Assembly (NCBI GenBank): GCA_964016885.1
Contig: OZ024740.1
Location: forward strand, 3,472,001-3,536,000
DNA: 64,000 bases
Source of the DNA: Eledone cirrhosa
Taxonomy: Eukaryota
Direction of reading: 5' to 3'
The position numbers and the translations under genes are program-made. Below the pieces are notes generated by a model, which was not told where the DNA came from, searched no databases, and saw only the letters and a list, made by a program, of their open reading frames with translations. Every line of letters starts with the position of its first letter. Within the stretch, counting starts at the first letter, position 1. This document shows, piece after piece, positions 9,406 to 25,217 of this stretch.

Positions 9406-9757
9406 TATATATATCATTTATATATATATATATATATATATATATATATATATATATATATATATATGTATATATATATATATATGTAGGAGGTGAGTTT
9501 TATTGTAGCACAATAAAGCAATGCAGTTGTAAAGGCTATCTCTCTCTCTCTATCACCCATCTCTCCTCCTCTCTCATCCTTCCTTCTTATACTCCTCCCC
9601 CACCATTCTTTACTCTCATCTCTTCCTCTTCCTTACCCTTTCCAAGCCACCCTCACTTTTATCCCAATATCACACATCAATCTTAAATTATTTTTCATAT
9701 GTTGATTTAAAACTTCACTATTCACAAGTGATTTTTAAGCTTCATATCATATATCCC

Positions 9758-9828
9758 TATTTTATCTGATGAAAACGCAGATATCATCCCAGGATGATAT
9801 TTGTTTTTGAAATGTGCATAATAAAATA
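9758..9828 (+). ncRNA. minimal type I hammerhead ribozyme motif (Penelope-type)
   Basis: Stem I TATTTTAT/ATAAAATA (8 bp perfect), core CTGATGA (9766-9772), long stem II (CAGATATCATCC/GGATGATATTTG), GAAA (9809-9812), near-palindromic stem III TGTGCA, cleavage triplet ATA (cut after 9820). Confidence 0.8.
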
Positions 9829-10082
9829 CTTGGAACTCTTTTAACCATCTTTAGATCTTATATTATATATATATATATATATATATATATATTATATATA
9901 TATATATATATATATATATATATATATATATATATATATTATATATATATATATATATATATATATATATATATATATATATATTATATATATATTATAT
10001 ATATATATATATATATATATATATATGAAATATATGAAATATATGAAATATAAGAATCAAAGAACTGTTCAAAACATTATTG

Positions 10083-10129
10083 TGCTTACAGCTGTTTCCT
10101 CCAAACCGAGGTTTGGATTCTTCGGAGCA
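10083..10129 (-). ncRNA. variant minimal hammerhead motif at the 3' end of the Penelope-like element
   Basis: Minus strand reads TGCT CCGAAGA A-TCCAAACC-TC-GGTTTGGA-G GAAA CAGCTG TA AGCA: stem I 4 bp, stem II 8 bp, palindromic stem III; core has U4C and an A.G mismatch at the base of stem II. Confidence 0.7.
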
Positions 10130-11572
10130 ATTTATTAATGCATGGACAGTTATATGACCTCCTTTTCAGCCGAGAGACATACCAATACATATTCAAACAT
10201 TGATACATATTCAAACATTGTGGGTCAACATTCATTACAGAATTTAGAGTGGCAGTACACACTTCGAGATTACATTTATATTAATAGGTACAATCAAAAA
10301 TCAAAGATATAGGTTAAAGTACAACATGAAGATAAGTGGTTATATAGTGCAAATGTTATATGTGTGGCACGCATGTGCGTCTTGTTTATATAGTGTGGCA
10401 GAGAGATATGTGTGGTAGAGGCACTTAGGTAGGTAAATAAGAGTGTTAGGTTGGTAGATCTGGTGGCAAAGTCTTTATATGATTGATATAGTCTGTGTGT
10501 GGAGAAATATTATAAGCATTAAAGATAGTGCAAGCATTAAAAGTGTTATAAGTATTGGAGATGCACAGCGCAGGGATGTCAAGTAATTCATGTACTTCGG
10601 CATTTTCATGGTCAAGGGAGTGTATATTTCGATTATATGCCTTTCACATAATCCACGACAATCCAGTTAGAGATCGTAGTCTGGTGTTCTTTAGTTCGAT
10701 ACAGGAGGTTGTTACGTTTCGAGAAACGCCATTGAATACCGGAAGTGTGTGTGTGGCTAAGGGGAGTTAATGCATGCGGGGAGGTAACTCTGGGGTTTCT
10801 ATATCTAGCCATTAAAATGTGTCCCAATATAGACCCTAAATTCTATGGTGAGGTGCACCTTCCAAGAGAGACTTTTAAAGCATAAAGTGTACTAACTATA
10901 GAGTAGTTTAACTAAATTATGCTGAAGGTGATCATATTATTATTAAGGTGGATTAACCCATCTTAAGGTGCTACAAATGGAAATTATAGATGATGAGCGA
11001 GGATTCTAAATTAATGATCTCTGTGGTTGTAGTCTGCTCATATGACCAGGCGCGGTGATTGCAGGATTGCTTCAGGACCCAATGATCTCTGGTAAGATCT
11101 GGGTCATCGCTTGCTACATTGGATGTCGAAAGATAATCGTCCCCAGGCAGGCCAAAGGTCAATCCGCAGTCCTCGCGATCCCTCTCTGACCGTCAGATCA
11201 TCCATATACGTACAACCCGCACGGCAGTTGCATTGCATTCACTCACTGCGCTCAGCAGCCCGGTCCTACTGGTCAACAGCGCTACTCGATTAAATCATTT
11301 TACATCTGTCTAAGGAAGGTGTTTCCTCTGCCCAACACCATCCAACCGATCAATTCATGCTCAAATTACCCTTAGAGCGGTGTAGTGCCGTCCAAGTGGG
11401 TGGATGTTGTCACACCTGCCGTAGAGGTATAAATGGGTATTTTCCCTGCGAAGGGTTCCAGAGGGATGTCGTTGTTTGTGTTATAATGGATCAGCTAGTG
11501 TTGGGTATGTAGTATAGGGTGTGTCTCTGGTGTTTGATGCTAGATGTGGTGTTAGGTTCCAGTCCGACATTG

Positions 11573-13033
11573 CTATATATAGGGCTTAAAGTTTTGGAAG
11601 GAATGTCTGAGGCGGTGCTGGCAAGTTGCAAACACCTCAGATTTTTTGTTAAGTAGGTTACGGTTGGAGAAGATAATATTGTGTGTCTCTAGTATACAGA
11701 GGTTACAGAATTTATTAGGTGGTTTGTACGAGGTCGCGCTGCCTATCACTTCCCATTTGAGTGTGTATGGTTTATTTTTAGATTTTAGATAGTGTATGTA
11801 GCTAGAAAGTGAGGTGGAGTTGGCTAGGCTGTGCTTTTTGAACGAGTGGATGTGCGAGTTATATCTGATTTTGAAGCAGTTAGAAGTGGAGCCTACATAG
11901 GTTTCTGAAGAGTTATTAGTCGTGACTGTGCATGAGTATATGACATCCTTGGTTAGGCATTTTTTATCTAAAGGGCAGGTTCTATTAGCTCTACAGTTAC
12001 AATTATTCTGTGCGTTAGTCCGCTGGTTATAATGCAATGCGGAAGTCTGTGTGGTGGATATAGGATTTTGGGTGTTCGGGTTGGCAACCCTGGTGTTATT
12101 ACTTATACTAGTGTTATTTCTATTGTTACTGCCGTTGCTATTGTTGCTTGCTACAGTGGTATTTAGAGGGTTTGCATCCCGTTGTGATTTTGTTTGTTGG
12201 AAGTAAGAACTAATTTTACTATTATTGCTGCTAGCTATGTGGTATGCTAAGTTAGGCGTCGTAGAGTATGAGATTTTAATGGTGTTTTTGTTTAAGAGGT
12301 TGTGGTACTTGTGTCCTAGAGGGAAGTTTTTATCTAGTAGTGAGAAGAAAGCCCTAGGTATGTTGGTGGAGACATTTAGGTTGAAAGGAGGGTTGAAAAA
12401 TGTATTATTTCTTCTTCTATTTTTGCTTTTAGTGTTTGGTGTGTTGCTTCCTCCTAAGGCCTCACAGTAGTTTCCATGGTAATGGTTACTTCCTGTGGCA
12501 CCCTCCGCTTTGGTGTACTTGTGGTTGCTATTCCTATTATTAGATTTCCTCATGGACATGTTGTGCGAGATTATGTTGTAGCTATGTGTTTTCTTAGGTA
12601 GGAACTCAATTTCTATATTATGGCCGGAGCTAGCTAATGCTTGATTGTAATATTGTGAGTTTTTGCTAAATATGTTTGCGTCATAGGACCGACTAGAGAT
12701 TCTATTGGACACCCCCTTAGAGATAGAGTTTAATATTGATCTAGGGTGATTAGACTTGGTATCTACGTAAATAAGTTTCTCATTAGGCTTATGGAAAGGT
12801 GTATATATTTTTGAGTCTAGGTATAGTGTGGCGTCTAGGAAGTTAACATTTTTAGTGTTTTTGTCCATGGTGATACTAAGGTTAAAGTTTTTGAATGTCT
12901 TATGCAGTTGTTTTCTAGTTCTTTCTATATTAAATTTTTTATATTCTATGAGTAGAAGTGCATCATCGCGGTACAAACCACCGTTGAGGTAAGGGAGGTC
13001 TTTATGGATTTCATTGAGGAGGTATAGGCCGAC
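11573..13033 (-). pseudogene. Penelope-like RT (C-terminal half) plus GIY-YIG endonuclease, uninterrupted but 5'-truncated
   Basis: ORF track 11573..12976; the same frame extends to 13033 (VGLYLLNEIHKDLPYLNGGLYRDD); no internal stops. Confidence 0.9.
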
Positions 13034-24123: not shown

Positions 24124-24129
24124 ATATAT

Positions 24130-24468
24130 ATCATCATCATCATCATCATCATCACCGTTTTACGTCCGTTCTTCCACGCTAGCATGGGTTAGACGGGTTG
24201 TCCTGTTGTGGGCAGTGTCTGGTCGGCTGACCATGCCTTGCTCATACAGGAACTGATTTGGCTTGATTTCTACAGCTGGATGCCCTTCCTAACACCAACC
24301 TCATTTACAGTGAGTGCTGGGTGCTTTTTCGTGGCGCCTACACGTCCACTTTACAGTGTGGGCTGGGTGCTTTTTTGCCGTGGCACCTCCACGACCACCT
24401 TGCGGTGGGGCGGTGGGGGGCATATTGTCTATATGCTTCAGCTTGTACCCATGGGAGGTCGGGTACTC
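24130..24468 (-). mobile_element. 3' stub of the same RTE-type LINE, in tandem upstream of the long copy
   Basis: Near-identical to 21632-21958; separated from the long copy by a short (TA)n. Confidence 0.9.
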
Positions 24469-24533
24469 ATATATATATATAATTAAAAGTAAGTAGGAGC
24501 GAGGTATGAGAGCATCACCAAGTTTATTCACGT

Positions 24534-24616
24534 GTGATGCATGTTTCGCTATTGATCAGCTCAAGGTTTGACCTGTTTTTATCTGGCTTGACTCTGTAAT
24601 CAAAAGCTTATCGGAC
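24534..24616 (-). ncRNA. degenerate hammerhead motif
   Basis: Minus strand: GT CCGATAA GCTTTTGAT...ATCAATAGC GAAA CATGCA TC AC. Stem II is visible; CATGCA can derive from CGCGCG by three CpG transitions; the core has two changes and stem I only 2 bp. Confidence 0.5.
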
Positions 24617-25217
24617 TTTTGACTTGTTAATGATGGGAGATATATGTGTGTATATTTATATATGTGTCTGTCACTGAAAGGGAGATGAGTGAGGAAAGAA
24701 GTGGGTGGTGACAAACTATAGAAAATAGCAGCCAGATGTTTTGAATCCTTTTCATATCTAAAGTACAACAATTAGCTGTCATAGTGTATATTAGAGTACA
24801 TTAACTAAGCCACTGGAGCCTTTTGTTGACTTGGGGCTAAACAAATCTATCTTTGACATTATCATTGTGTTACTAGAATCAATATACTTTGATATGGTAA
24901 CACCAGATGTTTCTATAATACCAAGATTCTATATAATGATAGCACTAATATCGTCTTTATAAACCCCTGCCCACCATCATCCCTCCATCGTATCAACAAA
25001 ATAATTTATCTTGACATTATCACAGCAAATATTAAAAAAATCAATAAAATCTACTCTGATATACTGATATGGTAATGCCAGAAGTTTAAAGATAATTTAT
25101 ATGATATCTATAATATTATATAATACTAACAGTACCAATGATATCATCCATGACACCAACTGAACTCTATAGATGTTGATTAAATAAAATATAAGTAGCA
25201 GTTGAGGGTGGTGTATT

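What the first reader, a model, noticed from the sequence alone, without database searches (positions are those of the whole stretch)
9490..24720. Cluster of short, ORF-less hammerhead-ribozyme cassettes ending in (TA)n: candidate non-autonomous Penelope-dependent (retrozyme-like) system
Seen: within about 15 kb there are HHR or HHR-like motifs at 9758(+), 10083(-), 13041(+), 13341(-), about 19100(-), 21090(+) and 24534(-). They differ in primary sequence but share one layout: minimal type I fold, palindromic stem III (TGTGCA, CAGCTG, CCGG, AACGTT, CCGCGCGG, CATGCA; absent in the 19100 motif), then about 30-190 nt of AT-rich tail running into (TA)n. Established: Penelope-like elements carry minimal HHRs with palindromic helix III thought to work as dimers, and non-autonomous HHR retroelements (retrozymes) exist. 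Inference: these are several distinct families of short HHR elements, or extreme 3' stubs, mobilised by PLE RT/GIY-YIG into TA microsatellites; a candidate autonomous partner lies in the middle of the cluster.
Basis: partly seen in the sequence, partly recalled or inferred. Interest (0 to 1): 0.75.

Follow-up and report, generated by a model that had tools for sequence, protein, structure and literature searches.

The report
Penelope stubs plus two hammerhead retrozymes
This 15-kb stretch is an ordinary pile-up of self-cutting-RNA (hammerhead) motifs from eight repeat families: four are ends of protein-coding Penelope-type jumping genes, two are old remnants, and two are non-coding 487- and 427-base head-to-tail repeats that were likely copied by the Penelope enzymes, probably from small RNA circles.

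Summary
The motifs are largely real, but they are neither one system nor a special cluster. Genome searches split them into eight families. Four are 3' ends of autonomous Penelope-like elements (PLEs): 9758, 10083 and 19100 are Hydra-type, 13041 is Neptune-type, and other copies run 5' into RT/GIY-YIG ORFs. Two are ORF-less retrozyme families: 21095 (487-nt unit) and 17967 (427-nt unit). Their copies are head-to-tail, start anywhere on the unit and often exceed one unit (30 of 52; 21 of 25). They share the PLE footprint: (TA)n targets and inverted arms ending at two fixed sites. Hammerheads occur about every 17 kb genome-wide, so the clustering is unremarkable. Metazoan non-LTR retrozymes and their PLE link are published, and this scan already reported the same kind repeatedly on other DNA of this genome. 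Cleavage, circles and the mobilising family are untested.

The parts
9488..9865 (+). Family A: two-armed 3' stub of an autonomous Hydra-type PLE (37-nt inverted arm 9488-9524 plus long arm); intact minimal HHR, core 9766, predicted cut after 9820
   Evidence: 9 of 30 loci have same-strand ORF upstream; arm ends 947/1030
10031..13031 (-). Family E: 5'-truncated copy of a very young autonomous Hydra-type PLE; ORF remnant 11573-13031 (RT end, CxCX5C linker, GIY-YIG); 3' HHR core 10125 (CCGAAGA), predicted cut after 10087
   Evidence: 40 of 40 scored matches listed at 100%; an 832-codon open frame in 7 of 19 other copies; motifs
13032..13222 (+). Family D: 3' stub of a Neptune-type PLE, abutting the truncated E head-to-head; HHR with U3-A8 core, further mutated in this copy (13036-13042)
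   Evidence: (L248, L247 carry the ORF)
13306..13389 (-). Family F: old HHR-element stub, truncated inside the long stem II so that CUGAUGA is missing
13380..17448 (-). 15-bp minisatellite, 272 copies; its unit resembles the 15 nt of family F loop II at the truncation point
   Evidence: 6 of 19 other F copies are within 3 mismatches at that position
17446..18178 (.). Family G retrozyme (427-nt ORF-less unit): two-armed insertion. Minus arm 17897-17446 is 1.07 units with a mutated HHR at 17540; plus arm 17896-18178 has an intact HHR, core 17967, predicted cut after 17997
19061..19225 (-). Family H: two-armed 3' stub of an autonomous Hydra-type PLE; HHR-like motif with CAGAAGA core and non-palindromic stem III
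   Evidence: (L241: collinear ORF upstream)
21073..21366 (+). Family B retrozyme (487-nt ORF-less unit): 0.6-unit copy with intact HHR, core 21095, predicted cut after 21168, ending in (TA)n
24479..24643 (-). Family C: old (about 80% identity) HHR-element stub, 60-nt stem II, core mutated to CCGATAA at 24614-24608; autonomy unresolved

Best explanation
The region holds separate insertions from eight hammerhead-bearing repeat families at (TA)n runs, of which four are ends of autonomous Penelope-like elements, two are decayed stubs, and two (487- and 427-nt units) are ORF-less head-to-tail retrozymes that were likely mobilised in trans by PLE reverse transcriptase and GIY-YIG endonuclease. Shown: family membership, unit lengths, variable 5' ends, two preferred 3' ends and inverted arms. 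Inferred mechanism: a tandem copy is transcribed; paired HHRs, dimerising through the palindromic stem III, cut it to unit length; the unit is probably ligated into a circle. A PLE endonuclease nicks a (TA)n run, the nicked DNA anneals to an AT-rich patch inside the unit 80-270 nt downstream of the cut site, and RT copies across the cut site for up to several turns before stopping at random. A second priming from the other side of the break, at the second patch, gives the inverted arm. Each insertion adds or sits in new (TA)n, so later insertions nest nearby.
For: B: 12 of 30 loci have direct HHR pairs spaced 474-489 nt; G: pairs spaced mostly 426-439 nt, up to 4 units. A, D, E, H show no such period. 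Copies longer than one unit: B 30 of 52 distinct loci, G 21 of 25, longest 1998 nt. 5' ends scatter round the unit; 3' ends fall at two AT-rich sites (B 176-177 in 31 and 279-293 in 13 of 52; G 312-321 in 9 and 367-373 in 9 of 25). Longest ATG frame 96 aa (B) and 69 aa (G). Nearby ORF pieces in the 3 suspicious loci inspected are other insertions whose linkers do not recur beside B or G. Two-armed loci: B 19 of 52, of which 10 pair 177 with 279-295; G 19 of 24, of which 11 pair 312-321 with 366-373. Autonomous families obey the same near/far rule: E 1533/1542, A 947/1029-1030 in 6 of 7, D 652-655/689 in 5 of 5. Turns within a locus are closer than between loci in 20 of 24 (B) and 14 of 15 (G). 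Intact 10-nt cores: B 51 of 61, G 29 of 37. Predicted dimer folds pair through stem III for A, E, B and G. Full-length E copies have the HHR-bearing 3' end repeated upstream of the ORF. Published model: PMC4209133, PMC7229834, 10.64898/2026.07.22.740005.
Against: No cleavage, transcript or circle was observed. A linear uncut multimer from a tandem master copy would give the same genomic pattern. The within-locus similarity is modest (0.061 vs 0.078 in B; 0.047 vs 0.066 in G) and can be explained by subfamilies. Only the top 40 candidates per search were scored, which favours long, intact copies and biases the end counts, so an autonomous PLE that carries B or G as its pLTR is not excluded. No significant sequence similarity links B or G to the 3' regions of A, D, E or H (best E 0.18). 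Minimal PLE HHRs cut poorly in vitro (PMC4209133), and 8 of 9 Xenopus dimers did not cut (preprint). Autonomy of C and F is unresolved.
Confidence: 0.8

Rival explanations
1. All cassettes are just 5'-truncated ends (pLTRs) of autonomous PLEs; B and G tandems are pLTR duplications of parents not yet found.
For: True for A, D, E and H. Only the top hits were scored. The preprint derives retrozymes from pLTRs.
Against: In 52 B and 25 G loci the sequence closes on itself at 487 and 427 nt with no ORF. E, a true autonomous family, instead runs from the HHR tail through about 170 nt into the ORF.
Confidence: 0.08
2. B and G are PLE-mobilised but copied from linear, uncut multimeric transcripts of tandem master loci; the HHR is a passenger or cuts rarely, and no circle is needed.
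For: All insertions read across the cut site. Minimal HHRs have low activity (PMC4209133). Most differences between turns are private (265 vs 63 shared in B).
Against: Insertions reach 4.7 units with near-exact period; 5' ends are spread over the whole unit; core positions are slightly more conserved than the rest (B 0.98 vs 0.94, G 0.99 vs 0.97). Related metazoan retrozymes accumulate as circles (PMC7229834).
Confidence: 0.3
3. The motifs form one local, co-operating system in which the central PLE drives or regulates the neighbouring cassettes.
For: Eight families lie within 15 kb; D abuts E directly with 2 nt of microhomology.
Against: Genome background is one strict HHR per 17 kb, with 6 in one sampled 10 kb. 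The families differ in age from about 100% to about 80% identity. The local E copy lacks the front of its RT. Both D and E arms end at their far sites, unlike single two-armed insertions.
Confidence: 0.03
4. B and G tandems arose by DNA-level satellite processes (slippage, unequal exchange) from single inserted copies.
For: Local tandem expansion does happen here: the 15-bp array from F loop II, and 58-59-nt repeats in L157 and L162. The preprint raises this model.
Against: Partial tandems of 1.1-2 units at many unlinked loci share the same period, end at the same two sites and come as inverted arms. Independent DNA duplications would have random periods.
Confidence: 0.05

Closest known systems
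Metazoan non-LTR retrozymes (Cervera and de la Pena 2020, PMC7229834: passages and Discussion read; Li, Clavereau and Pollet 2026, 10.64898/2026.07.22.740005: parts 1-3 of 5 read)
   Same: ORF-less tandem units with one type I HHR per unit, GC under 45% (B 36%, G 37%), dispersed as monomers to multimers, co-occurring with PLEs and proposed to be PLE-mobilised.
   Different: B carries a PLE-style minimal HHR with a 53-nt stem II rather than a canonical one. Both families occur as two-armed insertions with near/far fixed ends in (TA)n, which the parts read do not describe for retrozymes. No parent pLTR was identified. Expression and circles are untested here.
Hydra-clade PLEs (Craig et al. 2021, PMC8557442: passages, sections 6 and 11 read)
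   Same: Family E ORF has RWR (RWK-like), DKT, CxCX5C linker, C-terminal GIY-YIG with CxxC and CxH, an HHR and (TA)n targets; A and H show the same linker and EN layout. 5' truncation, inverted copies and a one-sided tail are described for PLEs generally.
   Different: The E unit is about 4.2 kb (paper: generally under 3 kb), with a 1.5-kb 3' region and a CCGAAGA core. No phylogeny was built.
[quoted passage not shown]
   Same: Short stem I, long stem II, palindromic stem III, mostly single motifs from truncated PLEs, opposite-strand pairs 100-700 bp apart, many unrelated families per genome, and the U3-A8 core variant seen in family D.
   Different: H has a non-palindromic stem III and a CAGAAGA core; C and F have 60-nt stem II domains.

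Membership tests
Metazoan non-LTR retrozyme (families B, G) | Head-to-tail tandem units of a few hundred bp, each with a type I HHR | tested here: met
   Periods 474-489 (12 of 30 B loci) and mostly 426-439 (G); the window's own B copy is under one unit
Metazoan non-LTR retrozyme (families B, G) | No coding capacity, no LTR-type ORF | tested here: met
   Longest ATG frame 96 aa (B), 69 aa (G); no collinear PLE ORF in 52 and 25 loci
Metazoan non-LTR retrozyme (families B, G) | Dispersed, multi-copy, mobile | tested here: met
   3789 and 351 first-look candidates; G homology in 6 of 40 sampled 10-kb stretches
Metazoan non-LTR retrozyme (families B, G) | Self-cleavage of the transcript | not testable with these tools
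   Folds and dimers are predictions only
Metazoan non-LTR retrozyme (families B, G) | Accumulation as circular RNA | not testable with these tools
Metazoan non-LTR retrozyme (families A, D, E, H) | ORF-less tandem unit | tested here: not met
   Copies extend into RT/GIY-YIG ORFs and show no short period
Metazoan non-LTR retrozyme (families C, F) | ORF-less tandem unit | tested here: inconclusive
   Shared sequence reaches only about 200-250 nt upstream; neither a period nor an ORF link was found; the 449-nt spacing in L087 spans a TA run
Hydra-clade PLE (family E) | RWK-like motif, DKT, CxCX5C linker, C-terminal GIY-YIG with CxxC and CxH | tested here: met
   RWR 51, DKT 136, CNCRANRTC 691, YVGST 725, CNLC 789, CQH 817; Pfam gave no RT or GIY-YIG hit
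Hydra-clade PLE (family E) | HHR in pLTR repeated upstream of the ORF; (TA)n targets | tested here: met
   L222, L225, L227, L234; window 3' end in (TA)n
Hydra-clade PLE (families E, A, H) | Placement in RT phylogeny | not tested
   No tree built; no reference set on hand
Neptune-clade PLE (family D) | DKG motif, Cys-rich linker, GIY-YIG with extra Cys/His | tested here: inconclusive
   KADKG and a frameshifted ORF with CG..CGTC linker and YIGQ in L248; the clade name rests on motifs and recall, with no tree

The most novel reading that the evidence does not exclude
Two undescribed retrozyme families and three autonomous PLE families of two clades (H by eye a fourth) share one insertion signature: opposed arms whose 3' ends fall at two family-specific AT-rich sites 9-111 nt apart and downstream of the ribozyme cut. 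This would be genomic evidence that PLE enzymes prime twice from one (TA)n break and copy round a religated RNA circle, for retrozymes and full PLEs alike, in a genome with an estimated 170,000 hammerheads and a still-active Hydra PLE (832-codon frames, near-identical copies) with which to reconstitute the reaction.
Probability: 0.45. Interest if true: 0.55.

Novelty: new member of a known kind. Interest (0 to 1): 0.35.

Why it matters
PLE mobilisation of animal retrozymes, and circular templates for PLEs, are proposed in the papers read but not shown mechanistically. Families B and G add two more members with a clear PLE footprint. Family E supplies intact, very young Hydra-type ORFs, so a trans-mobilisation assay is practical. 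The window itself is not special: it samples what is everywhere in this genome, and earlier notes of this scan describe younger and cleaner examples.

Tried and rejected
Rfam scan: no hammerhead family at E<=1, only TA-repeat miRNA noise. Pfam: no RT or GIY-YIG hit for the Hydra-type ORF. A-to-G editing scars: weak in B (ratio 1.31, p=0.026, driven by three polymorphic sites), not significant in G (1.28, p=0.14), reversed in E and A; rejected. Shared promoter or tail motif between retrozymes and autonomous families: only B-G aligned clearly (0 of 200 shuffles; one of 21 pairs; AT-rich, crude shuffle), and family A was missing from that test. The apparent fixed 5' end of B at 21073 and of A at 9524 in search tables was an artefact of the window copy's own truncation. 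Local enrichment rejected. The survey of E 5' junction partners was uninformative (24 of 49 unassigned). The 58-bp satellite shows no link to the families. Sequence look-ups of B and G among earlier scan findings returned nothing. Paper searches 'octopus hammerhead Penelope' and 'cephalopod retrozyme' listed no description of these families; Repbase, Dfam, subscription papers and supplements were not seen and may already hold them.
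Full report
Observation. A strict descriptor (CUGANGA, paired stem II, GAAA, self-complementary stem III, UH, stem I of 4 bp or more) found four motifs in the window: 9766(+), 17967(+), 21095(+) and, with one core change, 10125(-). Thirty local dinucleotide shuffles gave a mean of 0.03. 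Rfam reported no hammerhead. At 13041 the family core is TTGAAAA (U3-A8 swap, a variant described in PMC4209133) and this copy has TTCAAAA. At 13341 the copy is cut off inside a 60-nt stem II. At 24534 the true core lies at 24614-24608 and is mutated. At 19100 the core is CAGAAGA with a non-palindromic stem III. Family majority sequences, built by homology, pair in stem II with unrelated sequences around a constant core; stem I is 4-8 bp in A, B, E, G but only 2 bp in C, D, F.

Is it a cluster? Forty evenly spaced 10-kb samples held 23 perfect-core HHRs (28 with one change), up to 6 in one sample. That is one per 17 kb, roughly 170,000 if extrapolated to 3.0 Gb. Three in 15.2 kb has Poisson P=0.06 (four with one change, P=0.02), before allowing for selection of the window and for overdispersion. 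The 100 kb upstream has none and no TA runs. The cluster is ordinary for TA-rich sequence of this genome.

Four motifs are ends of autonomous PLEs. Family E (10031-13031, minus) has at least 40 copies listed at 100% identity. Seven of 19 other copies have an 832-codon open frame with RWR, DKT, CxCX5C, YVGST, CNLC and CQH, the Hydra features of PMC8557442. The window copy lacks the first 346 codons. Family A (9758) extends 5' by variable lengths beyond 1.5 kb, and 9 of 30 loci reach a same-strand GIY-YIG ORF. Family H (19100) is collinear with a Hydra-type ORF in L241, one of seven regions fetched. Family D (13041) extends at least 1.1 kb 5' and reaches a Neptune-type ORF in L248 and L247. C and F are old (about 80% identity) and could not be assigned.

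Two motifs are retrozymes. For B (21095), sequence downstream of the HHR tail returns to the HHR after about 487 nt: 12 of 30 loci show direct pairs spaced 474-489 nt. Of 60 loci fetched, 8 duplicates were dropped; 30 of the remaining 52 exceed one unit, 5' ends are scattered, and 44 of 52 3' ends fall at 176-177 or 279-293, both AT-rich and mostly followed by (TA)n. For G (17967), the unit is 427 nt, 21 of 25 loci exceed one unit, the longest is 1998 nt, and 18 of 25 end at 312-321 or 367-373. Neither unit has an ATG frame above 96 aa. ORF pieces lay in 4 B and 3 G loci; the three that could have been collinear were inspected and are other insertions. The window's G insertion is itself two-armed, with one arm of 1.07 units. 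The majority circles fold more stably than crude shuffles (z -4.7 and -9.5), which for G is partly due to TA-rich palindromes. These counts come from top-scoring hits and overstate length and intactness.

Mechanism. Prompted by earlier scan notes, I tested for opposed arms with unequal ends. B: 19 of 52 loci are two-armed, 10 pairing 177 with 279-295. G: 19 of 24 (one near-duplicate dropped), 11 pairing 312-321 with 366-373. The autonomous families do the same: E 1533/1542 (14 loci, 9 distinct insertions, 8 showing both ends), A 947/1029-1030 in 6 of 7, D 652-655/689 in 5 of 5. This is the inverted copy plus one-sided tail described for PLEs (PMC8557442 section 6), and it is the best evidence that PLE machinery inserts B and G. 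The preferred 3' ends lie downstream of the predicted cut, so RT read across it: the template was a religated circle or an uncut multimer. Turns within a locus are somewhat closer than copies between loci (20 of 24; 14 of 15), but most differences are private, so the two options are not separated. An editing signature was not supported. Which PLE drives B and G is unknown: no significant similarity to the A, D, E or H 3' regions, and E looks younger than both.

Comparison and novelty. PMC4209133 (parts 1-2 of 4) describes minimal palindromic HHRs as mostly single motifs from truncated PLEs and proposes circles and more-than-unit reverse transcription. PMC7229834 (passages, Discussion) defines non-LTR retrozymes and names PLEs as likely drivers. 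The 2026 preprint (parts 1-3 of 5) derives them from pLTRs. Searches listed no description of these particular families; supplements and repeat databases were not seen. This scan holds 975 notes in this genome that fit the words hammerhead, Penelope, retrozyme, and the eight shown describe the same kind with other unit lengths. Those notes are unchecked and are not counted as support.

Verdict. Observation partly confirmed; interpretation partly supported. New members of a known kind; interest 0.35.

Noticed in passing
window 13380-17448: A 272-copy 15-bp minisatellite whose unit resembles the loop II sequence of the family-F hammerhead at the point where the stub is truncated; it likely grew out of the ribozyme. 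L157 and L162 hold 58-59-nt tandem repeats from the same stem.
   Followed up: partly
window 13031/13032: Head-to-head fusion of a Hydra-type (E) and a Neptune-type (D) PLE with 2 nt of microhomology. Both arms end at their far sites, which favours two insertions plus a deletion over one template switch. L283 shows family B fused to the inverted arm of another PLE.
   Followed up: partly
family E, loci L221-L239: Very young, probably active Hydra-type PLE: 7 of 19 copies have an intact 832-codon frame; 2249 first-look candidates.
   Followed up: partly
L287, L290, L302, L307, L311, L318, L319, L323: A large group of HHRs share family A's stem I but have quite different, paired stem II sequences, which is natural covariation.
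   Followed up: no
window 2730-2913 (-): Exon encoding part of a DEP domain (Pfam PF00610, E 1e-16), resembling Epac/RAPGEF4 from recall; the HHR region may lie in an upstream intron of this gene.
   Followed up: no
window 6719-8839 (+) and about 21630-24150 (-): Two broken non-LTR retrotransposon copies (Pfam RVT_1; RTE-like from recall). A 170-nt piece from their 3' end recurs at 7 places in the first 26 kb and at 14 places in 400 kb of samples.
   Followed up: no
window 26399-64000: 58-bp satellite, about 658 copies, with no similarity to the HHR families.
   Followed up: partly
families B and G, about 100 nt around the shared CATACTT-TATT end site: The two retrozyme units align weakly around one insertion end site (0 of 200 shuffles), hinting at common origin or a shared priming signal.
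   Followed up: partly
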